From IMG/VR virus record IMGVR_UViG_3300045988_126262: DNA of 64,000 nt; one strand, 5' to 3'. A model generated the notes under the pieces. The model did not search any database. It was not told the origin of the DNA and was given only the letters and a program-made list of their open reading frames with translations. The position numbers and the translations under genes were made by a program. Source of the DNA: a virus. Positions 15,868-47,729 of the stretch are shown here, piece by piece. Each line of letters begins with the position of its first letter. Position 1 is the first letter of the stretch.

Positions 15868-17274
15868 ATGGACGAAATAACCGCTATATTAAACAGTGCC
15901 CGACCCGTTGATAATATTATCAATGACTTAAAAAGAAAATCCGTTTGTGTTCCTTCATGGGAATTTCTTATTAAAGCGTATGAACCATCATTCCATGAAA
16001 TAGCCAAAGATACTATAACACGAAAAGATAAAATACGCAAAGACGGGACAAAAGAAGAAGCATCACGCATTTACATTGGCCTTGAAAAGCTGCTTACAAA
16101 GCGTATGACTGAGTTCATGTTTGCCATTCCTGTAAAACGTATCTACCACAACACAGAAGGATTTGAAGTCCGCCAACAGATAGCAAAGGCTATAGAGGCA
16201 ATTTACAAGTATGCCCGAATCGATACAGAAAATATTAAACGTGCAAATGCGTATTTCGCCTCATGCGAAATTTTCACAATTTGGTACGTAGTAGAAAAGA
16301 CCAATACATTATATGGTTTTAATAGTAAGTATAAGCTAAAATGCAAAACATACTCGCCAATGGAGGGAGTAAAACTATATCCATTGATCGACGAGCTTGA
16401 CGATATGCTTGCAATGTCCTTTGAATACACCAAAAGGGTAAAGGACGAAGTAATTACTTATTTTGAGACATACACATCGGACAAACATTATAAATGGAAA
16501 CAAAATGGTAAAGGTTGGGAACCTGTCGGAACTGTTGAACAAATACGATTAATGAAAATACCCGGTGCATACGCATTTAGACCTGTACCTATATACCACG
16601 GATTAACTCGTATTCGCAAAGAATTGGAATATACACTTTCTCGTAACTCCGACGTGATTGCCTATAATTCAGCACCAATTTTGAAAATAGCCGGTGGTAT
16701 AAAAGGTGGAGAAGATAAAGGAGAAAGCCGTAGAGTTTACCGTGTGGAATATAATGGAGACGTATCGTATGTATCATGGTCGCAATCTATCGAAGCATTG
16801 AAGTATCATGTGGAAACCCTGCTTAAACTCTATTGGATGCAATCGCAGATGCCGGACGTTTCTTTTGACAACATGAAGTCTTTGGGGAACATAGGTTACG
16901 ATGCCAGACAAATGCTTTTGACCGACGCACACTTAAAGGTTGGAGACGAAAGCGGCTCATGGATTGAGCTTTTCGAACGTGAGGCAAGTGTCATCAAAGA
17001 ATTTTTAAAGCACATGAACACATCATGGGAAAGCGAAATTGATAATATAGAGATTGAACATATCATTACCCCCTTCATACAACAAGATGAAGATGCCACA
17101 GCAGATCGCTTATTGAAACTTAATGGCGGAAAACCAGTCATGTCTCAGCTTGAATCTATCCAACAGGCAGGTTATAGCAATGACGCGCAGGCTACATTGG
17201 AACAGATACGGCAAGAGGAGACTATCACTTCACAAAGCAGGGTCGACAATATATTTGGAGAGTCAGCAATTTAA
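15868..17274 (+). CDS. portal protein (SPP1 gp6-like)
   Basis: 468 aa. Size, charge pattern and its position immediately upstream of a MuF/gp7-type minor head gene support the call. It is the only portal-sized candidate in the window. Confidence 0.7.
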   Translation: MDEITAILNSARPVDNIINDLKRKSVCVPSWEFLIKAYEPSFHEIAKDTITRKDKIRKDGTKEEASRIYIGLEKLLTKRMTEFMFAIPVKRIYHNTEGFEVRQQIAKAIEAIYKYARIDTENIKRANAYFASCEIFTIWYVVEKTNTLYGFNSKYKLKCKTYSPMEGVKLYPLIDELDDMLAMSFEYTKRVKDEVITYFETYTSDKHYKWKQNGKGWEPVGTVEQIRLMKIPGAYAFRPVPIYHGLTRIRKELEYTLSRNSDVIAYNSAPILKIAGGIKGGEDKGESRRVYRVEYNGDVSYVSWSQSIEALKYHVETLLKLYWMQSQMPDVSFDNMKSLGNIGYDARQMLLTDAHLKVGDESGSWIELFEREASVIKEFLKHMNTSWESEIDNIEIEHIITPFIQQDEDATADRLLKLNGGKPVMSQLESIQQAGYSNDAQATLEQIRQEETITSQSRVDNIFGESAI

Positions 17275-17377: not shown

Positions 17378-20014
17378 ATGGCAAAGCCGAAAACTCCAAA
17401 TCAGAAACGCAAGTACGGCGAGCTGAATAAACGGCTCGCCAAATACGTCATGCTTGTGGAATCCATATACGAGGATTTGAATTTAGAGGCGGCTAAAATA
17501 GTCGGAATCACCGATTTTACCATTGATAGTGATAGGCCGTTTATGTGGTCGGATTATCCCCAAACAAGAAAACGGATAAGAGACTTACAAGAAAGGTTCG
17601 TTGAGGACATCGGAGCTGTAATATATAGTGGCACTTCTGAAGAATGGAAAAACAGCAACGAAGTTCAAGATCTTCTTGCCAACAAAGTATTGCAAACTTA
17701 TGGCGCAACCATAGGAAAGGAGAAATACGAAATCCTATACCAGCCCAATAATGATGCATTGAAAGCGTTTCAGCAACGTAAGGATAAAGGATTTACTATA
17801 TCAGATAAGTTGTGGAATCAATCGACTCTGTATAAGCAAGAACTTGAAGAAGCCATATCATGTGCCATTCAAAAAGGTACGAGTGCAATTACATTAAGTA
17901 AGCAAATATCCAAATATCTGCTCGATTTCCCACAACTACAAAAAGATTACAAGGAAAGGTTCGGAAAAGCATCACGGGCAATGGATTGTGAGTATCGTTC
18001 TATCCGTTTGGCTGCTTCCGAAATCAATATGGCATACCGCCAAGCTGAAAACCTTCGCTGGCAGCAGATGGACTTCGTGGTGGGATATGAAATCAAGTTG
18101 AGCAACAACCATACTTGCAACGGAAAGCCTTTCCAAGACATTTGCGATATACTAGCCGGGAAGTACCCGAAAGACTTCCAATGGACCGGTTGGCATCCCC
18201 TTTGTTATTCAGATGATAGCGAAGTTCTGACGAATAGAGGTTGGAAGTTATTCAAAGACGTTTTAGATGATGATTTGATATTATCGTTAAATCCAAATAC
18301 ACGTAATATAGAATGGGTTGAATTTATCGATAGACAATGTTTCTCATATTATGGAGAAATGATACATTTCTACAATCGCTCTCTTGATTGTCTCGTAACC
18401 CCAGAACACAATATGGTGTATTTGAATAAGAATGACGGAAAAATTAAGAATTGCCAAGCGAAAGAATACACGAAAGGTAAAGGCAGATTTTATAGAGGTT
18501 GCGAGTATGAATCAGGCGATGTCGAATTTTACCAAATTGATGATTTGATAATCCAATTTGATTTGTTCTGCGAATTTATGGGGTATTGGCTTTCTGACGG
18601 TAGTACAATGAGCAATTCGGGCGTCGTAATATCCCAGCAAGAGGGAGAAACGGCAAGAGATAAAATAGTTGATTGTATCAATCGTATGGGATTTGAACCA
18701 CATCTTGAAAAACAAAAGGTCGTATTTTATAACACTACCATACGCAACTATTTGAAGATTTTTGGACGGTGTATAAACAAATTTGTCCCGTATGTTATAA
18801 AGAATGCTTCAAAGAGGCAGATAAGGATTTTTCTTGATGCCTTTGTCCTTTGCGACGGTTATAAGCGTCCTTGCAGATCATTCATAGGGAATCACGGTAA
18901 TGAATTCAAGTCAGATAAAGATGAAATCATATACTTCACCACATCTGAACGCATGGCAGGAGACTTATCCGAACTAATACTGAAATCAGGACATAGGCCT
19001 TCTTTTTCTATAAATAAAGCAGGAGTATCACACAAAGCGAATGGTCCAATTATAAAGTCAAACTATGATTGTTACTCTATACGTGAATGCTATTCTGTCA
19101 CGTCTTCGGTATTTAATAAAGAGATACAGCATTATGATGGTCTTGTCTATGATTTGACACTGGAACGCAACCATATCATGTATATCCGCAGGAACGGAAA
19201 ATGCTTTTGGGGTAGCAATTGTCGCTGTTACAAGATACCCATTCTAAAAACCGAAGAAGAATTTTGGGAATGGGACGGTCGGAGTGAAGCCACGACAGCA
19301 AGCGTGAACGAAGTTAAAGACGTACCGGACGCTTTCAAAAAGTGGGTATTAGATAATCAAGAGCGCATCAGCACAGCAAAAAAACGTAATACTTTACCAT
19401 ACTTTTTGCGTGATAATAAATCCGTTTATCAGAAAATAACAGTTGAAAGTTCCATTTCGGAAATTGTAAAACGAGCATCATCAGTGGGAGATGAAGTACA
19501 GTCCATAGCAGAACGGATCGCAATAAAAAATGGTGGTTATGTTACGCCTATTAATTTCAAGAGTACAACTTCTATCACAAGAAAAGTCATCACAGAAGGT
19601 ATAACTCCATACGATATTAAAGATGCTGTAAGAACAACCATAATCGTTCCGAAGTCCCGAATAGAAGATGTGTTAGAAGAACTGTACAAAACGGAAGGCT
19701 TTTTACGCCTTAAAAGGCAAAAACCAGAATCATTCATGGGATATAGTGGAAACATCGTAAACATAAGAACCACAAATGGTCTTACTGCGGAAATACAGGT
19801 TAATACGGAACGTATGATTTTTGCAAAAGAAAGGCCGGAAGATGCGAAACGTATTCTTGGAAAAAAACGTTGGGAAGAAATACATAATGAGACAGGAATG
19901 GAAGGTGGTCTCGGACATAAATATTATGAGCAATGGCGCATACTCGATAAATCAAGTAATGAAGCACTAAAAATAGTAGAAAAATCTATTGAATATTATA
20001 GTCATTTCCGATAA
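17378..20014 (+). CDS. MuF/SPP1-gp7-type minor head protein, intein-containing, with a C-terminal RelA/SpoT-like domain
   Basis: 878 aa. The MuF hallmark HP(N/L)CRC is split as ...GWHPL|C(intein)N|CRCYKIPIL. The C-terminal ~160 aa carries RSH-like motifs in the expected order (see the separate feature and finding). Confidence 0.8.
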   Translation: MAKPKTPNQKRKYGELNKRLAKYVMLVESIYEDLNLEAAKIVGITDFTIDSDRPFMWSDYPQTRKRIRDLQERFVEDIGAVIYSGTSEEWKNSNEVQDLLANKVLQTYGATIGKEKYEILYQPNNDALKAFQQRKDKGFTISDKLWNQSTLYKQELEEAISCAIQKGTSAITLSKQISKYLLDFPQLQKDYKERFGKASRAMDCEYRSIRLAASEINMAYRQAENLRWQQMDFVVGYEIKLSNNHTCNGKPFQDICDILAGKYPKDFQWTGWHPLCYSDDSEVLTNRGWKLFKDVLDDDLILSLNPNTRNIEWVEFIDRQCFSYYGEMIHFYNRSLDCLVTPEHNMVYLNKNDGKIKNCQAKEYTKGKGRFYRGCEYESGDVEFYQIDDLIIQFDLFCEFMGYWLSDGSTMSNSGVVISQQEGETARDKIVDCINRMGFEPHLEKQKVVFYNTTIRNYLKIFGRCINKFVPYVIKNASKRQIRIFLDAFVLCDGYKRPCRSFIGNHGNEFKSDKDEIIYFTTSERMAGDLSELILKSGHRPSFSINKAGVSHKANGPIIKSNYDCYSIRECYSVTSSVFNKEIQHYDGLVYDLTLERNHIMYIRRNGKCFWGSNCRCYKIPILKTEEEFWEWDGRSEATTASVNEVKDVPDAFKKWVLDNQERISTAKKRNTLPYFLRDNKSVYQKITVESSISEIVKRASSVGDEVQSIAERIAIKNGGYVTPINFKSTTSITRKVITEGITPYDIKDAVRTTIIVPKSRIEDVLEELYKTEGFLRLKRQKPESFMGYSGNIVNIRTTNGLTAEIQVNTERMIFAKERPEDAKRILGKKRWEEIHNETGMEGGLGHKYYEQWRILDKSSNEALKIVEKSIEYYSHFR
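18203..19219 (+). mobile_element. intein (339 aa) with a LAGLIDADG homing endonuclease
   Basis: Block A CYSDDSEVLT, block B LVTPEHNM, two LAGLIDADG motifs (FMGYWLSDGS, IFLDAFVLCDGY), block F/G VYDLTLERNHIMY...FWGSN, followed by a +1 Cys. Excision would restore HPLCRC. Confidence 0.85.
19475..19957 (+). other. RelA/SpoT-homologue (toxSAS-like) nucleotidyltransferase-like domain of the MuF protein (aa ~700-860)
   Basis: FKSTTSITRK (KxxxSxxxK), KDAVRTTIIV, MGYSGNIVNI and AEIQVNTERM (compare EIQIRT) occur in the order of RSH synthetase motifs. Divergent and not verified. Confidence 0.45.
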
Positions 20015-23980: not shown

Positions 23981-24742
23981 CTATCCTACAATCGAGAGAT
24001 ACCGGCTTAAAGATTCTATTTCAGCCCGTATAACGACCTTTTGGAACTCTGCCGGATTGTTCTCCGTATGAGAGGCTTCCAGTGCCTTGTAATAGCTTAT
24101 TTTGTCCTCGTTGCTGCCTTTGAGATTTACCAGTGTATAACCGTTGCGGAGTAAGTATAGATTCATCAGAAGCCGAGATGTACGCCCGTTCCCGTCTATG
24201 AACGGGTGTATTCGTACCAACTCATCATGAAGATAAGCCGCAATGAGCACCGGGTGAATGCCCTGCTCCTCCATTCCGGAAAACCTTGTCATAAAAGCCT
24301 CCATTTGTGGTTGTATCAAATACGGCTGTGGAGGGACATGTGTACTTCCCGAAATCATAACAGGCACGCCCCGATAACGTCCGGCATTCTCTCTGTCTAT
24401 GCCATGTAGCACAATAGCGTGTATTTCCTTGATTGTGCGCTCCGATATTTCCATACCTCCCTTTGCAAAGTCCTTTATGTAGTCTATCGCTTCAACGTGG
24501 TTAATCGCTTCAAGGTGTTCCCGCATTGACTTTCCGGCGATAGTAACCCCCTCGTTGACTACTAACTCCGTTTCTTGCAGTGTGAGCGTATTTCCCTCGA
24601 TCCGGTTGCTTTCATAGGTGTATTCAATGGCAAACGCATTCTCTATCTTTTGCAGGGCATCCGGTGGTAATGGGCGCAGCCCCAACAAACGAGCTTTCAA
24701 CGTGTCGCATTGAAGTAATAGCTTTGTTATTTCCTCGTTCAT
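23981..24742 (-). CDS. Fic-family protein (class II, N-terminal inhibitory helix)
   Basis: 253 aa. Active-site motif HPFIDGNGRTSR. Upstream SNRIEG fits the (S/T)xxxE(G/N) inhibitory motif. Confidence 0.85.
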   Translation of the reverse strand: MNEEITKLLLQCDTLKARLLGLRPLPPDALQKIENAFAIEYTYESNRIEGNTLTLQETELVVNEGVTIAGKSMREHLEAINHVEAIDYIKDFAKGGMEISERTIKEIHAIVLHGIDRENAGRYRGVPVMISGSTHVPPQPYLIQPQMEAFMTRFSGMEEQGIHPVLIAAYLHDELVRIHPFIDGNGRTSRLLMNLYLLRNGYTLVNLKGSNEDKISYYKALEASHTENNPAEFQKVVIRAEIESLSRYLSIVG

Positions 24743-32330: not shown

Positions 32331-32843
32331 ATGTCGAGAAGAGGTAGGCCAAGAGATAAGTTGTCATTGTATGATAAATACATCAAAGGCAAGGAAGAGA
32401 TTATAAAATCTGACTGTCGAAACGGTGCAGATAATAAAGGGATTTGTAAACGATTGGGTATTGGGCTTACTACTTATAAAAGAATCCTTTCCCAATACCC
32501 AGAAGTACGCGATCTACTTAAGGAGAGCCGGCAAGAAGCTGACTTAAAGGTAGAAAGTGCATTGTATAAACGAGCCATCGGATATGATTACGAAGAAACA
32601 GTTACAGAAGTCAGGGTTGCTGAAGATGGGTCAGCGCAAACTACTGTTGTCAAAAAAACAAAGAAGCACGTTGCAGGAGATACTACTGCTCAAATATTTT
32701 GGCTTAAAAATAGAAAGCCTGATATATGGAGAGACAAGCAAGATGTAAACGTAAACAATGACGAATGGGTAGATGCTTTGAAATCTCTTACAGGTTCATA
32801 TAAGAATGACAACAAGCGAGGAAAAGAAGAAAATAATAAATGA
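32331..32843 (+). CDS. terS: terminase small subunit
   Basis: 170 aa. An HTH (ICKRLGIGLTTYKRIL) and the TTAQIFWLKNRKPDIWRDKQ block typical of phage TerS. Directly precedes TerL. Confidence 0.75.
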   Translation: MSRRGRPRDKLSLYDKYIKGKEEIIKSDCRNGADNKGICKRLGIGLTTYKRILSQYPEVRDLLKESRQEADLKVESALYKRAIGYDYEETVTEVRVAEDGSAQTTVVKKTKKHVAGDTTAQIFWLKNRKPDIWRDKQDVNVNNDEWVDALKSLTGSYKNDNKRGKEENNK

Positions 32844-34347
32844 AGCAATACATTATTGGTCTAAAGATTGGAACAGGTTTATACGTGATGCGCTTTGTGC
32901 AAATCTTGACAGAGAGCAACAAGCTATCATTGAGTCCGTACAGCACAATCCTATGACCGCTGTGGCATCAGGTACGGCAAGAGGGAAAGATTTTGTCGCT
33001 GCTTGTGCTGCATTATGCTTTATGTATCTTACCCCTCGTTTTGACATGAATGGCGTTTTGTCTGAGAATACAAAGGTCGCATTAACCGCCCCATCTGGAA
33101 GGCAAGTAAAAAACATCATGACACCAGAAGTTAGGAGGCTTGTACGTTCAGCAAGGGCAAAGTTCCCATTTTGTTGCCCGGGAAGATTAGTATCAGACGA
33201 TATAAGGACAAATTATGAAGAATGGTTTTTAACGGGGTTCAAAGCAGATGATAATGCTACTGAAGTTTGGTCTGGTTTTCATGCGGCAAATGTTATGTTT
33301 GTTGTTACAGAAGCCTCTGGTATATCAGAAACCATATACAATGCTATTGAAGGTAACTTACAGGGAAATTCCCGTTTACTCATCGTATTTAATCCTAACA
33401 TAACTACGGGTTATGCCGCACGAGCCATGAAATCCAATCGATTTGCGAAATTCCGGTTAAACTCACTCAATGCAGAGAATGTAGTCAAAAGGAAATTAGT
33501 CATTCCCGGTCAAGTAGATTATGAATGGGTAAAAGATAAAGTGACAAATTGGTGTTCTCCCATTCAGAAGGCAGATTTTAATGAAGGAGAAGGTGATTTT
33601 AAGTGGGAAGGTGGTCTATACCGACCTAATGACCTTTTTCGTGTCAAGGTACTTGGTATGTTTCCAAAAGTCTCCGAAGATGTACTTATTCCGTATGAAT
33701 GGATAGAGATTGCAAATGATAATTGGAATCGTTTACAAGAAGAAGGTTTTACACCGTCTAAATCATGTAAGATTGGTTCTGATGTTGCTGGTATGGGTCG
33801 AGATGAAAGTGTACTTTGCCCTCGATACGGAAACTATGTCCCTAAATTTGAAGTTCACCAATCTGCTGGAAAAGCGGACCACATGCATGTCGCAGGAATG
33901 CACATCATATATCTTTCTGACAAAAAATCCAAAGCGTACATCGATACAATAGGTGAAGGAGCTGGAGTATATTCCCGATTGGAAGAACTCGGATATAGAA
34001 ATGTTTATTCTTGTAAGTATTCCGAGAGTGCAAAAGGCTTGCATGACCTTACCGGACAATATGAATTTGCCAATATGCGAGCTTACTGCTATTGGTCTTT
34101 ACGTGATTGGCTTAATCCTAAGAACGGTTTTGGGGCGGCTATTCCCCCTTGTGACAAACTCATGGAGGAAGCAACCGAAACACACTGGAAGTTCCAAAGC
34201 GATGGACGGATTATAATTGAACCGAAAGAAGAAATCAAGAAACGTATCAAACGTTCGCCAGACTATATGGATGCACTTGCTAATACATTTTATCCATTTG
34301 ACTATGATTTTATTAGTGACGAAGAATTACTAAAAGACTTTTTATGA
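32806..34347 (+). CDS. terL: terminase large subunit
   Basis: 513 aa. N-terminal ATPase region (AVASGTARGKDF as Walker A-like, LLIVFNPN) and a C-terminal nuclease-sized domain. Follows TerS. Confidence 0.8.
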   Translation: MTTSEEKKKIINEAIHYWSKDWNRFIRDALCANLDREQQAIIESVQHNPMTAVASGTARGKDFVAACAALCFMYLTPRFDMNGVLSENTKVALTAPSGRQVKNIMTPEVRRLVRSARAKFPFCCPGRLVSDDIRTNYEEWFLTGFKADDNATEVWSGFHAANVMFVVTEASGISETIYNAIEGNLQGNSRLLIVFNPNITTGYAARAMKSNRFAKFRLNSLNAENVVKRKLVIPGQVDYEWVKDKVTNWCSPIQKADFNEGEGDFKWEGGLYRPNDLFRVKVLGMFPKVSEDVLIPYEWIEIANDNWNRLQEEGFTPSKSCKIGSDVAGMGRDESVLCPRYGNYVPKFEVHQSAGKADHMHVAGMHIIYLSDKKSKAYIDTIGEGAGVYSRLEELGYRNVYSCKYSESAKGLHDLTGQYEFANMRAYCYWSLRDWLNPKNGFGAAIPPCDKLMEEATETHWKFQSDGRIIIEPKEEIKKRIKRSPDYMDALANTFYPFDYDFISDEELLKDFL

Positions 34348-40452: not shown

Positions 40453-40505
40453 TTCAATAGGTTGTAGATAGAGCCAAACGTGGGGGCTTCGTACCCACGT
40501 GTTCT

Positions 40506-40594: not shown

Positions 40595-41311
40595 ATGGAC
40601 AAAGAAGGGAAAATAATAGAAATGGATATTACAGATACTATCATGGAAAGACCTTATGAGTTCCATATAGGAGAAATGCAATTCTACTTATACCCTGCCA
40701 CATTGGGTAAAATATACCTTTTATCACGTCTTACCGAAAATTTAGAAATAAATAAAGACTTCCTTTCTCTAAATCCATATATGGAAGCATTACGATTATG
40801 CAATTCCAAAAGAGATATTATATGCAAAATATTGTCTTACCATACATTCGATAAAAAGGAAGAATTATTCAATAGCCACCTAATAAATGAAAGACGAAAG
40901 CTATTTGAAGACAACCTCTCGAATGAAGAACTTGCTCAACTATTCATAATAGTGTTATCAAAGGATAACATTGAGCAGTTTATTAAACACTTCAAGATTG
41001 ATATTGAGAAAAAAGAACAAGAAAAAATATCAAGAATCAAGAAAAAGAAGTGTAACACTATAACCTTTGGAGGTAAAAGTATTTATGGTACTTTGATAGA
41101 TATAGCCTGCGAACGCTATGGCTGGACTATGGACTATGTTGTATGGGGTATTAGTTATGCCAACCTGCATATGTTACTTAATGATTACATAACATCTATA
41201 TACCTTACTGACGACGAGATAAAAAAATATCATATATCTACGGACCGAACATTTATAAACGGGGACGATCCTAAAAATATGGATAAAATAAAAGGCATGA
41301 AGTGGGACTAA
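40595..41311 (+). CDS. tail assembly chaperone candidate (by position)
   Basis: 238 aa counted from the ATG downstream of the tRNA. The track start at 40499 overlaps the tRNA. Confidence 0.4.
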   Translation: MDKEGKIIEMDITDTIMERPYEFHIGEMQFYLYPATLGKIYLLSRLTENLEINKDFLSLNPYMEALRLCNSKRDIICKILSYHTFDKKEELFNSHLINERRKLFEDNLSNEELAQLFIIVLSKDNIEQFIKHFKIDIEKKEQEKISRIKKKKCNTITFGGKSIYGTLIDIACERYGWTMDYVVWGISYANLHMLLNDYITSIYLTDDEIKKYHISTDRTFINGDDPKNMDKIKGMKWD

Positions 41312-41416
41312 AAATAATATTAATCCCCTTATCCATATCCAACGTTATTAAGCATTCTGCTATAAATTTATTTTAATGCATCCTATTAATAATGTTCCAC
41401 AATGTACACTGTTTTC

Positions 41417-42112
41417 TTATAAAGGGATAGTATCAATATGAATGATTTCACCATTTGTACCAATATCTATCGTCCAACATATCACGTCATTATAATTAGT
41501 CCATGCCCCAATAGATGGCACTTGAATTGTGGCATTTTCAAGTATTTGATAATAAACCTTTTCTCCAATATATATATAAAAGAAATTCAGAGGATATTGT
41601 TTTGCGCTTCCTTTTGTAGCAGATTTTATTCCAGAATTATATGTATTAAATGACATTGTAATATTACCAAAATATGGAGCATTAAATGTATATGATTTTC
41701 CGCTCAAAGTATTGTTTTTAGTAGATGGAGTCTTTTTGACTTTTGTAAACGATATACTTTTTGTTTTTTTATTTCCATATAAATCTTTATAGTCGATATT
41801 CACTTTAAGCAAATCATCTGATACTTCTTCAACTGTATAAATTGTTGTCCTATTAAAATAGGAATTTTGACATGATACTATATTTTTGGATTGAGTATAA
41901 TCACCGCTATCTATAAACTCATCTGCAATATATGCCGAATAGAATCCATCATTTCCAAATGACACTACATAATTTTCACTTTCCCAAACACCTATAATTA
42001 GTGATTTCGTATCATCACTCGTCGATCCGGGTTCTCCGTCCTCCGTTCGTGCACATGATTGTAAAATAATAATTGATAATAGAATCAATATATATAAAAA
42101 TAATTTCTTCAT
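41417..42112 (-). CDS. lipoprotein (lipocalin-like), moron
   Basis: 231 aa. Signal peptide MKKLFLYILILLSIIILQSC with a lipobox Cys. On the opposite strand to the tail genes. Confidence 0.75.
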   Translation of the reverse strand: MKKLFLYILILLSIIILQSCARTEDGEPGSTSDDTKSLIIGVWESENYVVSFGNDGFYSAYIADEFIDSGDYTQSKNIVSCQNSYFNRTTIYTVEEVSDDLLKVNIDYKDLYGNKKTKSISFTKVKKTPSTKNNTLSGKSYTFNAPYFGNITMSFNTYNSGIKSATKGSAKQYPLNFFYIYIGEKVYYQILENATIQVPSIGAWTNYNDVICWTIDIGTNGEIIHIDTIPL

Positions 42113-42124
42113 ATCTTTATTTTT

Positions 42125-43255
42125 TTATTTATCAGCACATTTTTTCGCCAAATCAAGACCCTCTTTAAGACCATCGGCATAATTAAAAATATCATCGATA
42201 GTCTCAATGTCAATCCATTCATTCGTCTTGTAGTTATCCTTTGGCAAGCATATTTTTTTACTCCGTTTCCCTATATAAATGCGGCAAATCCACCACCATG
42301 TACTACCATCTATGTTCACTGAAAAATAAGTCTTGTAGTCGTTATATTGAATACGAGATACATCTACATACTGCCTCAATATACTGCGCACAATGTTATA
42401 GGCATCTATCTCCTCTTGTGTAGTAACTATACCTTTTTCTCGGTCTTGAAATACTACACCATCGGGAAGTTTTTCTTCATTCATTTCGTTTGGTTGTTGA
42501 TTTTCATTCTCAACCTCCTGTGGTATCTGTTTTTCCTCCTTATTCTCATTCTTCATAGCCACATTCAAACGGTCGGATATAATATCGTTAATCACCGAAG
42601 CAATGGATTTCTTAACAATAGGTCTATATTGGTCCACAAGTTTTGCCGTATATTTCCCATCATTAAGATTACGGACAAAATAACGTGTAAATTCATCGTC
42701 TGGCATTTGGAAATTACGATTAAGCATTTCTTTTACTTGTATCGTGATTTGTAACTCTTGTGCCGTACTCAATATATCTTGCTCATTATAATAAGACTTA
42801 TGAAACTTTTTCAGTTGCTCAATATCGTTGTCCGATAAATCGAGCATATTTACCACAAGGAACGGCTTTTCGTCCATTATGTTCACCTTTTCTAAATCTG
42901 TATAAAAGCGATATTCTATTCCATTCGTCAAGACCCCAAACCTAGCCTTTGATGCGACAAAATATCTTTGTAACTGAGTGTCATGTAAATTCAAGTTTTG
43001 TTTACAATGCTTGCATTCTATAAGTAGTATAGGATTTTCGTCCTTCATTATGGCATAGTCTATTTTTTCGCCTTTTCTCTTAACTAAGTCACAATCCATT
43101 TCCGGTACAACCTCAAAGGGATTGAATACATCATACCCCAATGCTGCTATCACAGGCATTACAAAAGAGGTTTTTGTCGCTTCTTCCGTTGCTATGCTAT
43201 CCTTCTGTTTAGCAATTTTCTCTACAATCTGTTGAATTGTATCTTTGAAATCCAT
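42125..43255 (-). CDS. HsdR-N-terminal-like PD-(D/E)xK nuclease-domain protein
   Basis: 376 aa. EEATKTSFVMPVIAALGYD...KIDYAI...ILLIECKH...QLQRYF...GVLTNGIEYRFY matches the type I restriction R-subunit N-terminal nuclease domain (D...ExK). Confidence 0.7.
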   Translation of the reverse strand: MDFKDTIQQIVEKIAKQKDSIATEEATKTSFVMPVIAALGYDVFNPFEVVPEMDCDLVKRKGEKIDYAIMKDENPILLIECKHCKQNLNLHDTQLQRYFVASKARFGVLTNGIEYRFYTDLEKVNIMDEKPFLVVNMLDLSDNDIEQLKKFHKSYYNEQDILSTAQELQITIQVKEMLNRNFQMPDDEFTRYFVRNLNDGKYTAKLVDQYRPIVKKSIASVINDIISDRLNVAMKNENKEEKQIPQEVENENQQPNEMNEEKLPDGVVFQDREKGIVTTQEEIDAYNIVRSILRQYVDVSRIQYNDYKTYFSVNIDGSTWWWICRIYIGKRSKKICLPKDNYKTNEWIDIETIDDIFNYADGLKEGLDLAKKCADK

Positions 43256-43364
43256 ATCTTATGCTGTTAAGATTGTTTCGTCAAAAGTATAATACAATAA
43301 TCATTTATTAAAATATTTATACTCACACATTAGTTAAACTTTATTAACTCTATTCTATTTTATC

Positions 43365-43400
43365 AAAAGTATATGAATTTCATACACTTTTGTATATTTG
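43365..43400 (+). promoter_or_regulatory. family-B promoter, copy 5
   Basis: Palindrome aaaagtatatgaatttcatacactttt at 43365-43391, and TATATTTG at 43393-43400. Confidence 0.65.
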
Positions 43401-43445
43401 CAAATGATGTGATGTTACATCTACCCCTTTTAATCGAAAAGACTC

Positions 43446-46400
43446 ATGGCCGGACTTCATTTTGATATAACAGGCGACAATTCTAATTTTCTTCGTAAAC
43501 TACGAGAAGTAGAAACCGGAGTAACCAATACTTCTAAGGAAATAGAAAAAAATGGATTGGGCATAGAAGATATGTTCAACAAAATGACGAAAGCAGCTGC
43601 AGCTTTTGGGGCTGGCTTTACAGCAAAAGAACTTATCCAAAATATTATACAAGTAAGAGGTGAATTTCAACAATTAGAGGTCGCCTTTACCACTATGCTT
43701 GGAAGTAGTGAAAAGGCAAACGTCCTTATGGCTCAGCTCACAGAAACAGCCGCCAAAACTCCATTCGATCTACAAGGTGTTGCCAATGGAGCTCGTCAAT
43801 TACTGGCTTACGGTACTTCTGCTGAAGATGTTAACGAGACTCTTATACGATTAGGGAACATTGCAGCCGGACTTTCACAACCTTTGGGAGACTTAGTATA
43901 TCTCTATGGTACAACTATGACACAAGGTCGACTTTATACACAGGACCTAAACCAATTCACTGGACGAGGTATTCCAATGATAAAAGAACTTGCCAAAGAA
44001 TTTGGAGTAGCTGAAAGTGAAATCAAAGGAATGGTAGAAGCTGGTATGATAGGGTTTCCAGAGGTTCAGAAAGTCATACAGAACCTTACCAACGAGGGTG
44101 GTATGTTCTTTAACTTAATGCAAGAACAAAGCAAAACCATTACCGGACAGATTTCTAACATAGGAGATAGTTTCTCGATGATGTTGAACGACATCGGCAA
44201 AGCGAATGAAGGTATTATCAATGATGCATTATCCGGAGTCTCTTATTTGATAGGAAACTATGAAACTGTCGGAAAAACCTTGCTTGAAATCGTCGGAACA
44301 TACGGAGCGTATAAAGCTGCATTGATTACTATAACAGCTTTACAAAAAGTATATTCCGCCGTATTAGCTCAGTCCGCATTAAATCAAAGTCTTGCAGCAG
44401 CTTCAGGAATAACATTATCAAATGCAGAAGCTTTGGCTGCTACTCGCACGAAATTATTGCAAGTTGCGCAAGCTGCACTGAACAAGACTTTACTTGCCAA
44501 CCCATATGTCTCAGTAGCAGCGGCAGTAGCAGCACTAGGTTTAGGCATTTATAAATTAGTCACTTATCAAACAGAAGCGGAAAAGGCACAGGAAAGGCTG
44601 AATGCTGCGGAAAAGGAATCTGAGAAAGCAGCCTTATCTGAGCAAAGGGAACTTGCTAAGCTCAATGGAGAATTGTCTTCATTAAAAGAAGGTACAGATG
44701 AATATAATACCGTCAAAGAAAAAATTGTTGCAGGATATAGCAAGTATTATGAAGGTCTAGAAGAAGAAATAAATAAGGTTGGACTCACAGAAGAAGCTTA
44801 TGAAAAACTCACAAAAGCAATCACAGATTCTTACGGGGCAAGACAATACCAGCATTTCAAGTCGCAGCAGGAAGATTGGTTGGACAACATAATGTCCGAT
44901 AATCTCGGAAAGATACAAGACCGCCTATATAGCGAGTTAGGAGATAAAGAAGGTGCAAAACTCTATTCACAAATCTACCATGCCATATTGGAACGAAGAG
45001 ATTTGGATGCTGCGATCCAAGACAAACTAAATGAAATACAAGGCAAAGGTACGATTTTTGCGGATTCACGTATTGATACATATATCTCCAATATCCGAGA
45101 AGCGCAAAAAATAACAGAGGATTTAGATGAAAAAGCGCGTGAAAAGTTTGGCGTTACAAGTATAAATACCTCTCAACAGGCAGCAAATGAGCCATTTTCC
45201 ACCGAAGGTAAATCCATCTCCCAACTTGAAGAAGAAATCAAGAAGGCTGAAACCTCACTTGCCTCATTAAAAAAGGCCCTTGCAGACGGCAGCGGCACGA
45301 AAGAAGCAGTGGAGCAACAAGAGGCTTATATCAAGTCGCTTCAAGACACTGTACTTGAACGTGAGAAAGATTTGAGGGTAATCAATGAAGTCAAAACACA
45401 AATCTCAAAATTAGAGAAAGAGCAGGGAGAAACTGTAAGCGGAAGCAAGGAATACAATGCGTTACAATCACGAATTGACGCACTCCGTGCAAAGCTGCCT
45501 AAAACAGCCACTGGATTGACTGACATAAATGCCTATACCGACCAGCTGAACAGGATTAAAGAACTCCGTAAAAAAAATGCAAGTGAACGAATACGACTTG
45601 ATACGGATTTGGAGAACCAAGTAGAACAGGCTCGGATAAATGCGATGGAGGACGGCATAGACAAAGAAATGGCGCAACGTGAACTGAACAACAAAATAGA
45701 ATTACAAGACATCGAAAGACAGAAGCAGGAATATATCCGTAAAATTACGGAGGCGCAAAGACAAATATTTGAAGCAGAGGAGAACGCCAAAGCCGCCAAA
45801 GATAAGAACTACAAGAAAAAGGCGTTTGACCCTTCCTCTGTCTCTGTTGATACATCGATGTTTGACAACATGTCAGAATACACCAAACAGAAGCAGGCCA
45901 ACGAAACGGCAAATTATTATAACAATATTCTCGCCAAGTATCAAGACTATACAACAAAGCGTTTAAGCGTTACAAAGAAATACCAGAATGATTTAGCAAA
46001 TCTGGAAAAAGCGGGAGGTACGGAGGAGCAAAAGGCTGAATTGTCCTATCAGCTAACGGAAGCATTAAACGCTATCGATAAAGAATTTGCCATGCGTGAA
46101 GTTTCTTTTCAGACGTGGGCAAATAGTATAACAAATATGAGTTTGGACGAACTGGAACGGTTGCTTACCGAAGCGGAACAGGAATTAGCACGCATGGAAA
46201 ATGAAGGAGGGACAAACGGAAACGAACTTGCAGTGCAGCGTGCAAAGGTAACGGCAACGAAAGACCGAATCGCCAATATAAAAAGTAAAGAAAGCACATC
46301 GCCGGATAAACGAAGTATTAAAGAGTGGCAGGAGTTGTATAAAACTTTATCTAAGGTAGAAAGAGAGTTTGAAGAACTTGGAGATACAATAGGGGGCACG

Positions 46401-47729
46401 GTCGGTGAAATTATATCCGCAGCCGGAAGTATCTCCTCTTCTACGTTACAAATGATTGATGGTATTGTAACACTTGCAAATAGTTCTTCTACTGCCATGT
46501 CAGGAACGGCCGAAGCTGCATCTACGGCAATTCAGAATGTAGAAAAAGCCTCCGTAATACTGTCGATTGTAGGTGCAGCCTTGCAAGTAGCAACAAAAAT
46601 AGTAAGCTTATTTAGACAAGAGTCGTCGTATGAAAAGTACGAAGAAGCAAAGGAGGTGTACGAGTCATATATAGATATATTGGATCAGATAATCGAGAAA
46701 CAATTGGAATTGGCCGATTCGCTGGCGGGAGAAAACGCACAGGCTGCCTATGACAAAGCGATAGAATTATACAAGAAACAGGCAGATTCGGCACGGGTAT
46801 TAGGAGCACAATATTACAAATCTAGGGAATCCGGGGAAAAATCGAAAGGGTATCAAGATTTTTACGGTATGTCCGCCGCCGGTTGGCAGCAAGCCGCATC
46901 CGCACTAGGTATATCTGCGCAAGAATTGGCTATGATGATGTCAAAAAACATGACTAACTTATTTAACCTTCCCGTTGAGCAATTAGAAAAACTAATGTCG
47001 GAAGCTCCTCTATTTATATCACAGCTGGATAGTGAAGCGCAAGAATACATAAAGCAGATTATCGAAGCGGAGAATAATATTAAATCGACGGCAGAGCGAG
47101 AGATGGAGAACGCCACAGGCATATCTTTTGAATCTTTCTCCGATGACATATTAGAGTCCTTGTATGATGTGGAGAAAGGAGCGGAGGACATTGCGGACGA
47201 CATCGCAGACTATATGAGAAAAGCTCTCATTAAAGCCATGTATGTAAAGCAATATGAACCGGAAATGCGCAAATGGTATGAGATGTGGGCGGAGGCGACA
47301 AAAGACGGAGAAATCGACACGGAAGAACAGACCGCACTGGATAACCTAAAAAATTCAATTATTCAAGGAGCCGAAGCGGGAGCCGCCGCTATCAATGCAC
47401 AATTTGGAACAGGTTCTACCACCGAACAAAAGTCGACAGCCGGAGGTTCTGAAACCATGTCACAAGATACAGCAACGGAATTAAACGGCCGGTTTACAGC
47501 GTTGCAGCTTTCTGGTGAAGAAATCAAAAATCAAATGATTTCAGCCGTAATCTCTCTAAATTCTCTTTTATCTTTATCAACTAATAGCAATTCTATATTA
47601 AATAACATTCTTAATCAACACGTGATTACTAACAGCTACTTAGAAGACATTGCAAAATACACGAAGCCAATTCTTGAATTTGGCGATAAATTTGATAGAA
47701 TGATTTCAATTTTTAACAATAAACTATAA
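43446..47729 (+). CDS. tail tape measure protein
   Basis: 1427 aa. TP901-type core TAAKTPFDLQGVANGARQLLAYG and long coiled-coil regions. Confidence 0.9.
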   Translation: MAGLHFDITGDNSNFLRKLREVETGVTNTSKEIEKNGLGIEDMFNKMTKAAAAFGAGFTAKELIQNIIQVRGEFQQLEVAFTTMLGSSEKANVLMAQLTETAAKTPFDLQGVANGARQLLAYGTSAEDVNETLIRLGNIAAGLSQPLGDLVYLYGTTMTQGRLYTQDLNQFTGRGIPMIKELAKEFGVAESEIKGMVEAGMIGFPEVQKVIQNLTNEGGMFFNLMQEQSKTITGQISNIGDSFSMMLNDIGKANEGIINDALSGVSYLIGNYETVGKTLLEIVGTYGAYKAALITITALQKVYSAVLAQSALNQSLAAASGITLSNAEALAATRTKLLQVAQAALNKTLLANPYVSVAAAVAALGLGIYKLVTYQTEAEKAQERLNAAEKESEKAALSEQRELAKLNGELSSLKEGTDEYNTVKEKIVAGYSKYYEGLEEEINKVGLTEEAYEKLTKAITDSYGARQYQHFKSQQEDWLDNIMSDNLGKIQDRLYSELGDKEGAKLYSQIYHAILERRDLDAAIQDKLNEIQGKGTIFADSRIDTYISNIREAQKITEDLDEKAREKFGVTSINTSQQAANEPFSTEGKSISQLEEEIKKAETSLASLKKALADGSGTKEAVEQQEAYIKSLQDTVLEREKDLRVINEVKTQISKLEKEQGETVSGSKEYNALQSRIDALRAKLPKTATGLTDINAYTDQLNRIKELRKKNASERIRLDTDLENQVEQARINAMEDGIDKEMAQRELNNKIELQDIERQKQEYIRKITEAQRQIFEAEENAKAAKDKNYKKKAFDPSSVSVDTSMFDNMSEYTKQKQANETANYYNNILAKYQDYTTKRLSVTKKYQNDLANLEKAGGTEEQKAELSYQLTEALNAIDKEFAMREVSFQTWANSITNMSLDELERLLTEAEQELARMENEGGTNGNELAVQRAKVTATKDRIANIKSKESTSPDKRSIKEWQELYKTLSKVEREFEELGDTIGGTVGEIISAAGSISSSTLQMIDGIVTLANSSSTAMSGTAEAASTAIQNVEKASVILSIVGAALQVATKIVSLFRQESSYEKYEEAKEVYESYIDILDQIIEKQLELADSLAGENAQAAYDKAIELYKKQADSARVLGAQYYKSRESGEKSKGYQDFYGMSAAGWQQAASALGISAQELAMMMSKNMTNLFNLPVEQLEKLMSEAPLFISQLDSEAQEYIKQIIEAENNIKSTAEREMENATGISFESFSDDILESLYDVEKGAEDIADDIADYMRKALIKAMYVKQYEPEMRKWYEMWAEATKDGEIDTEEQTALDNLKNSIIQGAEAGAAAINAQFGTGSTTEQKSTAGGSETMSQDTATELNGRFTALQLSGEEIKNQMISAVISLNSLLSLSTNSNSILNNILNQHVITNSYLEDIAKYTKPILEFGDKFDRMISIFNNKL

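What the first reader, a model, noticed from the sequence alone, without database searches (positions are those of the whole stretch)
41417..43445. Reverse-strand two-gene moron (PD-(D/E)xK HsdR-N-like protein plus lipoprotein) inserted between the tail chaperone and the tape measure
These are the only - strand genes in the 29-kb structural region. Gene 42125..43255 has the type I restriction R-subunit N-terminal nuclease domain (D-x-ExK: KIDYAI...LLIECKH...QRY...TNG), followed by a Lys/Glu-rich linker and an unassigned C-terminal domain. Gene 41417..42112 is a lipoprotein with a Bacteroidales-style signal, LQSC.

The cassette splits a normally contiguous chaperone-tape measure pair. It is transcribed away from the divergent region that also holds late promoter B5. 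That is the typical layout of a lysogeny-expressed defence or superinfection-exclusion cargo. I know of no described two-gene system of this composition, and I cannot search.
Basis: partly seen in the sequence, partly recalled or inferred. Interest (0 to 1): 0.65.

Follow-up and report, generated by a model that had tools for sequence, protein, structure and literature searches.

The report
Prophage moron: lone nuclease plus swappable lipoprotein
Two extra genes inserted backwards between the tail chaperone and tape measure genes of a gut Bacteroidales prophage encode a stand-alone restriction-type nuclease from a large uncharacterised phage family and an interchangeable lipoprotein, a classic add-on layout that probably protects the lysogen but is not a new two-gene system.

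Summary
There are two co-directional minus-strand genes, a 376-aa HsdR-N-type PD-(D/E)xK protein and a 231-aa lipoprotein, between a chaperone-position gene and the tape measure gene. The phage is integrated: a near-identical copy lies inside a 3.25-Mb contig.

The cassette is accessory. Seven more distant relatives have the chaperone gene abutting the tape measure gene, and eleven others carry different reverse-strand cargo at that site. This is the same site as the original moron, HK97 gene 15.

The pair is not a fixed two-gene system. The nuclease matches PHROG 4225 ('endonuclease') over its full length and has more than 7,000 relatives. In temperate phages of Firmicutes, Fusobacteria, Actinobacteria and Proteobacteria it sits alone, just downstream of the CI-like repressor. 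It matches nothing in PADLOC 2.0.

Among 49 near-identical phages, the slot after the nuclease holds one of three unrelated lipoproteins. Across gut Bacteroidales prophages I found at least seven unrelated ones. The window's lipoprotein family also occurs without the nuclease, and three contigs have lost most of the nuclease gene.

Best reading: a lysogen-expressed stand-alone nuclease, a candidate single-gene defence, plus an independent exchangeable envelope lipoprotein that may exclude superinfecting phages. Both functions are inferred, not shown.

The parts
42125..43255 (-). Gene for a 376-aa stand-alone HsdR-N-type PD-(D/E)xK nuclease-like protein (PHROG 4225 family)
   Evidence: ORF. Pfam HSDR_N and HSDR_N_2 above cutoff. 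PHROG 4225 full-length match, E 2.3e-122. AlphaFold2 model with pLDDT 83.9. Top PDB fold match is HsdR fragment 3h1t.
42848..43255 (-). Nuclease domain (aa 1-136). Catalytic-type residues: D66 (43058-43060), E80 (43016-43018), K82 (43010-43012). Also the QxxxY motif (Q94-Y98) and TNG (110-112).
   Evidence: These residues are invariant in the cross-phylum alignments A2 and A3. Secondary structure.
42545..42832 (-). Helical middle region (about aa 142-237)
   Evidence: AlphaFold2 model, helices 142-149, 158-183, 187-197 and 204-237
42473..42550 (-). Lys/Glu/Asn-rich disordered linker (aa 236-261)
   Evidence: pLDDT below 50. Length and sequence vary among homologues.
42128..42469 (-). C-terminal alpha/beta domain (aa 263-376). 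No Pfam family; acidic, pI about 5.
   Evidence: pLDDT 80-95. 909 representative proteins match at E<=0.001, mostly with the same architecture. A few fusions to other domains. pI.
41417..42112 (-). Gene for a 231-aa lipoprotein. Signal peptide aa 1-19, lipobox LQSC, Cys20 at 42053-42055. It is the exchangeable second gene of the cassette.
   Evidence: ORF. Small family of 50 proteins with no Pfam match. Replaced by unrelated lipoproteins in near-identical phages.
43256..43445 (.). Divergent intergenic region. Bacteroides-type -7 motifs (TAnnTTTG) lie on the - strand at 43371-43364 and 43289-43282, upstream of the nuclease gene, and on the + strand at 43393-43400, 45 nt upstream of the tape measure ATG.
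   Evidence: Only 61 such motifs occur in the whole window on both strands, and 3 of them are in these 190 nt. They are conserved in cassette-bearing relatives. The + strand motif is absent from relatives without the cassette.
41312..41416 (.). Convergent intergenic region between the end of the chaperone-position gene and the end of the lipoprotein gene
   Evidence: No terminator-like hairpin was found here.
43062..43072 (-). Upstream copy of the 11-bp direct repeat GGCGAAAAAAT
   Evidence: It marks the junction of a 923-bp deletion found in L017, L020 and L052.
42139..42149 (-). Downstream copy of the 11-bp direct repeat GGCGAAAAAAT
40595..41311 (+). Left flank: a 238-aa gene that always precedes the tape measure gene (PHROG 11996, function unknown). 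It is called a tail chaperone on position alone.
43446..47729 (+). Right flank: tape measure protein
   Evidence: Pfam TMP_3 and PHROG 9959

Best explanation
The cassette is a bicistronic moron with its own promoter region. It is inserted head-on at the junction between the chaperone-position gene and the tape measure gene of an integrated gut Bacteroidales prophage.

Gene 1 is a cytoplasmic, stand-alone PD-(D/E)xK nuclease. It has an HsdR-N-type catalytic domain, a helical region, a flexible linker and a family-specific C-terminal domain. It works without a fixed partner. In most temperate phages that carry it, it is co-transcribed with the CI-type repressor, so it is probably made in lysogens. 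I infer that it cuts incoming foreign DNA, acting as a restriction-like or infection-triggered single-protein defence, with the acidic C-terminal domain serving as the specificity or sensor module.

Gene 2 is an independent, frequently exchanged envelope lipoprotein that shares the same transcript. I infer that it alters or masks the cell surface, as the superinfection-exclusion lipoproteins Llp, Cor and Ltp do.

Shown: gene structure, fold and catalytic motifs, accessory status, allele swapping, prophage integration, genomic contexts.
Inferred: expression in lysogens, nuclease activity, both protective functions.
For: Accessory status:
- The junction is empty in L064-L068, L071 and L072, and L073-L083 carry different cargo there.
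- The nuclease gene is reduced to a 66-aa stub in 3 of 49 near-identical contigs, through an 11-bp direct repeat.

Integration:
- The same phage lies at 1.306 Mb in a 3.25-Mb contig.

Own promoters:
- TAnnTTTG motifs are enriched in the 190-nt divergent region and conserved in relatives.

Nuclease:
- Pfam, PHROG, invariant D/ExK and QxxxY residues, and the fold match.

Lysogeny-operon context:
- Fusobacterium FNU_1P, Acetoanaerobium, Enterococcus, Lacticaseibacillus, Clostridium, Streptococcus, Corynebacterium and Klebsiella phages, plus Bacteroidales prophage L100. The usual order is repressor, sometimes an ImmA-type protease, then the nuclease, then towards the integrase.

No constant partner:
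- Neighbours are heterogeneous in 75 genomic loci.

Lipoprotein slot:
- 27, 8 and 14 of 49 near-identical contigs carry the 164-aa, 275-aa and 231-aa alleles respectively.
- At least seven unrelated lipoprotein families follow the nuclease gene.
- The window's lipoprotein family occurs in a different phage backbone without the nuclease.

Precedent:
- HK97 gene 15, a superinfection-exclusion moron, lies between the chaperone and tape measure genes (PMC3594210).
Against: - No experiment or published function exists for this family.
- PADLOC 2.0 gave no match at E<=1.
- Many family members are single chromosomal genes among housekeeping genes in Bacteroidota, so a role outside defence is possible.
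- The C-terminal domain is acidic and has only chance-level fold matches, so its role is unknown.
- How the enzyme spares self DNA is unexplained.
- No terminator was detected downstream of the cassette.
- The window lipoprotein's post-cysteine sequence, CARTED, only loosely resembles the Bacteroides surface-export signal CS(D/E)2 (PMC6222051).
Confidence: 0.55

Rival explanations
1. The two genes form an obligate two-component defence or exclusion system. The envelope lipoprotein and the cytoplasmic nuclease would act together, for example with the lipoprotein sensing or blocking entry and the nuclease destroying DNA that gets in.
For: - The genes are 12 nt apart here. The equivalent pairs overlap by 4 nt in L011 and lie 3-24 nt apart in L012, L103 and L100.
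- In gut Bacteroidales prophage contexts a lipoprotein gene follows the nuclease gene in about 8 of 9 cases, against a background of about 6.5% lipoprotein genes.
- The nuclease plus BDI_0842-lipoprotein pair occurs both in the tail module (L012) and next to an HTH repressor (L103), so it seems to have moved as a unit.
Against: - The downstream lipoproteins belong to at least seven unrelated families. A specific protein partnership is therefore unlikely.
- Outside Bacteroidales the nuclease has no lipoprotein neighbour.
- In 75 genomic loci the neighbours are heterogeneous.
- The window's lipoprotein family occurs without the nuclease.
- Nuclease-deleted variants keep the lipoprotein.
- The nine contexts are not independent of one another.
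Confidence: 0.12
2. The nuclease serves the phage or itself rather than the lysogen. It could be a free-standing homing-type endonuclease that spreads the cassette, with hitch-hiking cargo, into related phages during co-infection. Or it could be a lytic-cycle nuclease for recombination or host DNA degradation.
For: - The insertion lies between two conserved essential genes, and presence varies among relatives.
- Recombination breakpoints occur inside and just after the gene. The middle region is mosaic and the C-terminal tail has alternative forms.
- PD-(D/E)xK homing endonucleases exist (my own knowledge).
Against: - The gene faces against the late genes and has its own promoter motifs.
- In eight other phage lineages it sits in the repressor operon, not in lytic modules.
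- Hundreds of chromosomal copies lie outside prophages.
- The full-length architecture is conserved across phyla, which is unusual for fast-decaying homing genes.
- It is dispensable in three natural variants.
Confidence: 0.1
3. The cassette is lysogenic-conversion cargo unrelated to phage defence. The lipoprotein would change host surface properties, such as nutrient binding, immune evasion or vesicle cargo. The nuclease-like protein would have a cellular housekeeping or regulatory role.
For: - Many family members are solitary chromosomal genes next to metabolic genes.
- There are no defence-database matches.
- Surface lipoproteins are abundant fitness factors in Bacteroides (PMC5080379, PMC6222051).
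- One alternative allele carries a BDI_0842 domain that is also found in chromosomal proteins.
Against: - The position directly behind CI-type repressors is conserved in five phyla. That position is the classical one for immunity and exclusion genes.
- The catalytic residues are strictly conserved.
- Rapid allele turnover in the lipoprotein slot fits an arms race.
- The same hotspot in relatives carries other membrane-protein cargo.
Confidence: 0.2

Closest known systems
HK97 gene 15 moron (superinfection exclusion)
   Same: [quoted passage not shown] It is expressed from the prophage, absent from relatives, and acts at the envelope (PMC3594210).
   Different: HK97 gp15 is one small inner-membrane protein encoded on the same strand. 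Here there are two genes on the opposite strand, a cytoplasmic nuclease and a lipoprotein, with no sequence similarity to gp15.
HsdR nuclease domain of type I restriction enzymes (EcoR124I 2w00; V. vulnificus 3h1t)
   Same: PD-(D/E)xK core with the D...ExK and QxxxY motifs. Pfam HSDR_N match and best fold match.
   Different: There is no SF2 motor domain and no HsdM or HsdS partner nearby. The protein is 376 aa with its own helical and C-terminal domains.
PHROG 4225 'endonuclease', also annotated by NCBI as 'type I restriction enzyme HsdR N-terminal domain-containing protein'
   Same: Full-length membership (E 2.3e-122, positions 2-352 of 357). Homologues at 27-50% identity occur in Porphyromonas, Fusobacterium, Enterococcus, Streptococcus, Clostridium, Corynebacterium and Klebsiella phages.
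   Different: In most of those phages the gene follows the repressor in the lysogeny module. Here, and in P. gingivalis phages, it lies in the structural region before the tape measure gene. No member has a tested function.
Prophage superinfection-exclusion lipoproteins (TP-J34 Ltp, T5 Llp, Cor)
   Same: Each is a prophage- or phage-encoded lipoprotein carried as an accessory gene, sometimes beside the repressor or integrase. Ltp targets the tape measure protein of incoming phages (my own knowledge; Cor and the general concept in PMC3594210).
   Different: No detectable sequence similarity. There were no phage-database matches for the window lipoprotein and no Pfam family. Function is untested.
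Type IV (modification-dependent) restriction enzymes such as Mrr, which are single-chain nuclease-plus-reader proteins
   Same: A single polypeptide combining a PD-(D/E)xK cleavage domain with a separate second domain, and no methyltransferase partner. One JGI record calls a homologue 'predicted type IV restriction endonuclease'.
   Different: No known reader domain (SRA, winged helix and so on) was detected, and the C-terminal domain is acidic. Dependence on DNA modification is untested.

Membership tests
PD-(D/E)xK superfamily / Pfam HSDR_N (PF04313) | Profile match above the curated cutoff | tested here: met
   HSDR_N scores 51.8 bits against 25.1. HSDR_N_2 scores 35.2 against 25.
PD-(D/E)xK superfamily / Pfam HSDR_N (PF04313) | Catalytic D...(D/E)xK triad and the HsdR QxxxY motif are conserved | tested here: met
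   D66, E80, K82, Q94 and Y98 are invariant in A2 (10 phages, 5 phyla) and A3 (56 sequences).
PD-(D/E)xK superfamily / Pfam HSDR_N (PF04313) | Alpha/beta nuclease fold | tested here: met
   The AlphaFold2 model has pLDDT 83.9. Its top PDB match is HsdR fragment 3h1t, probability 0.99 and E 0.03. EcoR124I HsdR is also listed.
PD-(D/E)xK superfamily / Pfam HSDR_N (PF04313) | Nuclease activity | not testable with these tools
   Needs biochemistry.
Type I restriction-modification system (HsdR subunit) | SF2 helicase/translocase domains in the same protein | tested here: not met
   The protein is 376 aa with no helicase Pfam match.
Type I restriction-modification system (HsdR subunit) | Adjacent hsdM and hsdS genes | tested here: not met
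   The neighbours are a lipoprotein gene, a chaperone-position gene and the tape measure gene.
PHROG 4225 | Full-length profile match | tested here: met
   E 2.3e-122. Residues 1-368 match profile positions 2-352 of 357.
Moron (Juhala/Hendrix sense) | Present in some genomes and absent at the same junction in close relatives | tested here: met
   The junction is empty in 7 relatives, holds other cargo in 11, and holds the cassette in 49 near-identical contigs and 4 more distant ones.
Moron (Juhala/Hendrix sense) | Own promoter | tested here: inconclusive
   Two Bacteroides-type -7 motifs lie upstream on the correct strand, where about 0.1 is expected by chance, and they are conserved in relatives. 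No transcript data are available. The sigma-70 scan is at chance level.
Moron (Juhala/Hendrix sense) | Own terminator | tested here: not met
   No terminator-like hairpin lies downstream of the lipoprotein gene. Rho-independent terminator rules may not apply to Bacteroides.
Moron (Juhala/Hendrix sense) | Base composition differs from the flanking genes | tested here: inconclusive
   G+C is 0.28-0.35 against 0.40-0.42 in the tape measure and head genes, but the adjacent chaperone-position gene is also 0.31-0.33.
Moron (Juhala/Hendrix sense) | Expressed from the repressed prophage | not testable with these tools
   Needs RNA-seq of a lysogen. There is indirect support from homologues that lie in repressor operons.
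Known anti-phage defence systems (PADLOC-DB 2.0.0) | Match to any defence protein model | tested here: not met
   No match at E<=1 for the nuclease, the lipoprotein or the chaperone-position protein. The alternative cargo proteins gave none either.
Bacterial lipoprotein (SPII substrate) | N-terminal signal peptide with a lipobox cysteine | tested here: met
   MKKLFLYILILLSIIILQS-C20. The feature is conserved in homologues P0122 and P0165.
Surface-exposed Bacteroidota lipoprotein (LES-bearing) | Two acidic residues at about +3/+4 after the lipidated Cys, CS(D/E)2 or K-(D/E)2 | tested here: inconclusive
   The window protein has C-A-R-T-E-D, with the acidic pair at +5/+6. Homologue L004 has CSSSDNDEQDDD, and the other alleles have CSDND, CTDK and CSSEND. 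Motif definitions come from PMC5080379 and PMC6222051.
Superinfection-exclusion lipoproteins (Ltp, Llp, Cor) | Sequence or profile similarity to a characterised member | tested here: not met
   No Pfam, PHROG or PADLOC match. No tblastn match in 50,697 phage records.

The most novel reading that the evidence does not exclude
The PHROG 4225 / HsdR-N-plus-C-domain protein could be a new, very widespread single-gene anti-phage or anti-foreign-DNA system. It has thousands of members in at least five phyla and usually sits just behind the prophage repressor. In gut Bacteroidales it would travel as a unit with a rapidly diversifying surface lipoprotein, giving a two-layer exclusion module: the envelope first, then a cytoplasmic nuclease.
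Probability: 0.3. Interest if true: 0.65.

Novelty: new member of a known kind. Interest (0 to 1): 0.42.

Why it matters
If the nuclease family proves protective, it would add a common single-protein system to the defence catalogue. That would explain a gene annotators already see, without a known function, next to the repressor in many temperate phages of gut and oral bacteria.

The lipoprotein slot is a natural experiment. One prevalent gut prophage carries three unrelated lipoprotein alleles at the same position, which could reveal how Bacteroides prophages reshape the host surface or exclude competitors.

For this window on its own, the result is mainly a well-documented ordinary moron at a classical hotspot.

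Tried and rejected
- Megablast of 39.9-47.8 kb against 50,697 phage records gave no match, so the phage is uncultivated.
- tblastn of the lipoprotein against the phage collection gave nothing.
- PADLOC on both genes and on the alternative cargo gave nothing useful.
- NCBIfam gave only sub-threshold noise.
- PDB sequence searches with the single protein and with the 56-sequence profile gave no significant match.
- The first AlphaFold2 run, on a shallow alignment of sequences at least 68% identical, gave pLDDT 60 and was discarded. It was redone with a more diverse alignment.
- Foldseek matches for the C-terminal domain (MotA C-terminal domain, PUR-alpha, frataxin; E about 1) are at chance level and were not used. 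BFVD only recovered the same family.
- The idea that the C-terminal domain is a basic DNA reader was weakened by its acidic pI.
- The search for other architectures containing the C-terminal domain returned mostly truncated gene calls from the same family. The few real fusions (TerD, DUF4268, DUF4236, weak HNH_2, borderline SeqA_C) suggest little.
- Literature searches for HsdR-N, COG2810, PF04313, PHROG 4225 and Bacteroides superinfection-exclusion lipoproteins found no functional study of this family.
- The sigma-70 promoter and intrinsic terminator scans were at chance level.
- One paper search failed on a term-length limit.
- The guess that the 386-aa variants have a longer N-terminus was wrong. 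They differ at the C-terminal tail.
Full report
**What is in the sequence**

The two reverse-strand ORFs exist exactly as described: 42125..43255(-), 376 aa, and 41417..42112(-), 231 aa, separated by 12 nt.

They lie between a plus-strand gene at 40499/40595..41311 and the tape measure gene at 43446..47729. The first matches PHROG 11996 (function unknown) and is 238 aa from its probable ATG. The second matches Pfam TMP_3 and PHROG 9959.

G+C drops to 0.28-0.35 over the cassette against about 0.40-0.42 in the tape measure and head genes. GC and AT skew invert over the cassette, as expected for genes on the opposite strand.

The other long minus-strand ORFs in the late region overlap supported plus-strand genes or have no PHROG match. 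One further reverse gene, 23981..24742, lies in the earlier part of the window.

**Gene 1, the nuclease-like protein**

Pfam HSDR_N (51.8 bits, cutoff 25.1) and HSDR_N_2 match residues 24-123.

Two alignments were made. One holds ten phage homologues from five phyla at 27-45% identity to the window protein. The other holds 56 metagenomic and genomic homologues. In both, D66, E80, K82, Q94, Y98 and T110-N111-G112 are invariant. So are the N-terminal E24-E25-x-T27-K28 and the C-terminal T278, T279, E282, D306, Y310 and R325. D66, E80 and K82 form the D...ExK triad, and Q94 and Y98 form the QxxxY motif of HsdR nuclease domains.

A first AlphaFold2 run on a shallow alignment was poor (pLDDT 60). 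A second, on the 56-sequence alignment, gave pLDDT 83.9. That model has four parts:
- an alpha/beta nuclease domain, aa 1-136;
- a helical region, aa 142-237;
- a disordered Lys/Glu/Asn-rich linker, aa 236-261;
- a compact alpha/beta C-terminal domain, aa 263-376.

The best PDB fold match is the HsdR fragment 3h1t (probability 0.99). EcoR124I HsdR also appears in the list. The C-terminal domain has only chance-level matches, is acidic with pI about 5, and has no Pfam family.

The C-terminal domain is almost always found in this same architecture. The rare exceptions are fusions to TerD, DUF4268 or DUF4236, a weak match to HNH_2, and a borderline match to a SeqA-C-like domain.

The protein has no helicase domain and no HsdM or HsdS neighbours. 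It is therefore not a type I restriction enzyme.

**The nuclease family is large, catalogued and uncharacterised**

The protein matches PHROG 4225 ('endonuclease') over its full length, E 2.3e-122.

More than 7,000 proteins match at E<=1e-5 among the 8,000 candidates that were scored. Source names are generic:
- 'type I restriction enzyme HsdR N-terminal domain-containing protein';
- 'PD-(D/E)XK nuclease superfamily protein';
- 'predicted type IV restriction endonuclease'.

PADLOC-DB 2.0 has no match at E<=1. Five literature searches found no functional study.

**Genomic context of the family**

The context in deposited phages is very consistent:

| Phage | Gene order around the nuclease |
|---|---|
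| Fusobacterium FNU_1P | CI, nuclease, integrase |
| Acetoanaerobium ANDSL2_ph1 | repressor, metalloprotease, nuclease |
| Enterococcus EG-TP1 | repressor, metalloprotease, nuclease |
| Streptococcus IPP25 | repressor, small gene, nuclease, integrase |
| Corynebacterium Juicebox | repressor, nuclease, metalloprotease ... integrase |
| Klebsiella KpF5 | Rac-type repressor, nuclease |
| Clostridium CWou-2020a | HTH regulators, nuclease |

A Bacteroidales prophage (L100) has an S24 repressor, then 9 bp, then the nuclease, a lipoprotein, an 83-aa gene and the integrase.

Only the P. gingivalis phages resemble the window. There the gene sits in the structural region upstream of the tape measure gene, beside HicAB and an anti-CRISPR candidate.

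In 75 genomic loci the operon-distance neighbours are heterogeneous: a few HTH or S24 repressors, a few ion channels, and many housekeeping genes. The protein therefore has no constant partner.

Being co-oriented with and directly behind the repressor is the classical place for genes expressed in lysogens. That is the main, indirect, argument for lysogenic expression.

**The cassette is accessory**

I fetched eighty IMG/VR loci that encode a homologue of the chaperone-position protein and scored each for the five surrounding genes.

- Forty-nine contigs with a 97-99% identical chaperone-position gene, and both flanks present, all carry the nuclease gene or a remnant of it.
- Seven more distant relatives have the chaperone-position gene directly abutting the tape measure gene, with gaps of 70-160 nt. 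Their chaperone-position proteins are 51-58% identical and their tape measure N-termini 66-76% identical.
- Eleven others (L073-L083) carry about 3 kb of unrelated reverse-strand cargo at the same place: a 433-aa multi-pass membrane protein and a 147-aa membrane protein, neither with a database match.
- A further lineage (L004-L007) keeps the cassette, with the nuclease at 67% and the lipoprotein at 55% identity.
- In L017, L020 and L052 a 923-bp deletion between two copies of the 11-bp repeat GGCGAAAAAAT leaves a 66-aa stub. It occurs in two different lipoprotein backgrounds.

The phage is integrated. The same phage lies at 1.306 Mb in a 3.25-Mb contig, and identical proteins occur on contigs of up to 1.4 Mb. 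The window also encodes two Ant anti-repressors.

**Promoters**

The Bacteroides -7 motif TAnnTTTG occurs only 61 times on both strands of the 64-kb window. The 190-nt region between the nuclease and tape measure genes holds three of them:
- two on the minus strand, at 43371 and 43289, the latter 26 nt upstream of the nuclease ATG;
- one on the plus strand, at 43393, 45 nt upstream of the tape measure ATG.

About 0.1 minus-strand motifs would be expected there by chance.

The motifs are conserved in cassette-bearing relatives, including the diverged L004 lineage. Cassette-less relatives have no plus-strand motif in front of the tape measure gene. I infer that the insertion brought a bidirectional promoter region that also restores tape measure transcription behind a head-on insert.

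The generic sigma-70 and terminator scans were uninformative.

**Gene 2, the lipoprotein slot**

The 231-aa protein has a signal peptide and the lipobox LQSC. It belongs to a small family of 50 proteins with no Pfam, PHROG or PADLOC match and no hit in deposited phages.

Among the 49 near-identical phages the slot after the nuclease holds one of three unrelated lipoproteins:

| Allele | Contigs | Note |
|---|---|---|
| 164 aa | 27 | overlaps the nuclease stop codon by 4 nt |
| 275 aa | 8 | carries a BDI_0842 domain |
| 231 aa (window type) | 14 | |

Further unrelated lipoproteins follow the nuclease in L104 (a Caecibacteroides pullorum prophage with the same tail-module site), L100, L105 and L116. 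L103 has a homologue of the 275-aa type, this time behind an HTH repressor.

The window's lipoprotein family also occurs, at 44% identity, in a different phage backbone without any nuclease gene.

So a lipoprotein gene follows the nuclease gene in about 8 of 9 gut Bacteroidales prophage contexts. The crude background is about 6.5% lipoprotein genes in the same loci. The contexts are not independent of one another, however, and the lipoproteins are non-homologous.

I read this as a shared lysogenic transcript with an exchangeable cargo position, not a specific protein partnership. The association is real enough to keep the coupled-module idea alive at low probability.

Most alleles have acidic residues just after the lipidated cysteine, which resembles the Bacteroidota surface-export signal. 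The window protein (C-A-R-T-E-D) fits only loosely.

**Comparison with what is known**

The layout matches that of the first described moron. [quoted passage not shown] It is expressed from the prophage and excludes superinfecting phages (PMC3594210).

The nuclease is a member of the HSDR_N / PD-(D/E)xK family and of PHROG 4225, but not of type I restriction-modification systems or any PADLOC system. The lipoprotein is a bona fide SPII-type lipoprotein with no detectable relation to Ltp, Llp or Cor.

**Verdict**

The nuclease is a stand-alone member of a large, already catalogued but functionally untested family, and the lipoprotein is a swappable add-on.

The mechanism I favour, at about 0.55, is a lysogen-expressed nuclease acting on incoming DNA plus an envelope lipoprotein acting at adsorption or entry. 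Only the anatomy, the evolutionary behaviour and the context are demonstrated.

Interest is moderate. The window itself shows an ordinary moron at a classical hotspot. The repressor-linked nuclease family and the three-allele lipoprotein slot in a highly prevalent gut prophage are good experimental leads.

Noticed in passing
window 23981..24742 (-): A second reverse-strand gene (253 aa) lies among plus-strand genes. It matches PHROGs 11900 and 5978 (function unknown) and has a weak Doc-like toxin match. It may be another moron.
   Followed up: partly
window 17378..20014 (+): An 878-aa head-morphogenesis protein also matches PHROG 16625, 'Bxa ADP-ribosyl transferase' (E 1.9e-64). A host-modifying enzyme appears to be fused to a virion protein.
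   Followed up: no
L073 7858..9739 (and L074-L083): Relatives carry different reverse-strand cargo at the same chaperone-tape measure hotspot: a 433-aa protein with a soluble N-terminal domain and several membrane helices, and a 147-aa membrane protein. Neither matches Pfam or PADLOC.
   Followed up: partly
window 42139..42149 and 43062..43072; L017, L020, L052: An 11-bp direct repeat, GGCGAAAAAAT, flanks a 923-bp deletion that reduces the nuclease gene to a 66-aa stub. This is seen in three metagenomic contigs with two different lipoprotein alleles. It is either a recurrent deletion or a recombining null allele.
   Followed up: yes
window 43393..43400; L064-L072 chaperone-TMP junctions: The tape measure gene has a Bacteroides-type -7 motif about 45 nt upstream of its ATG only in genomes that carry the reverse cassette. 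Genomes without the cassette lack it, although the TMP leader AATCGAAAAGACT is conserved in all.
   Followed up: partly
L117, L147, L149, L174 (downstream of the nuclease homologue); L148 on the opposite strand: In several Bacteroidales and Paludibacteraceae MAGs the nuclease homologue is followed, at 4-19 nt, by a roughly 260-aa Ion_trans-family channel protein. These may be closely related loci rather than independent associations.
   Followed up: partly
L008 8001..9460: In an unrelated phage backbone (SPP1-type portal, Phage_cap_E capsid) the homologue of the window lipoprotein is followed by a second lipoprotein with a Big_2 Ig-like domain. The pair lies between the portal and scaffold genes and next to divergent Bro-N/ANT genes, so this looks like another lipoprotein cargo site.
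   Followed up: partly
window 15868..17274 and 32806..34347: The portal gene lies about 15 kb upstream of the large terminase gene. Two Ant anti-repressor genes (15044, 21591), a ParB-like gene and other cargo lie near or between them. This is an unusual module order for a tailed phage.
   Followed up: no
L012 8600..9730 compared with window 42125..43255: The nuclease genes of near-identical phages are mosaic. A roughly 50-aa stretch of the helical region and the last 10-20 codons occur in alternative versions (376-aa and 386-aa forms). Recombination breakpoints therefore fall inside the gene.
   Followed up: partly
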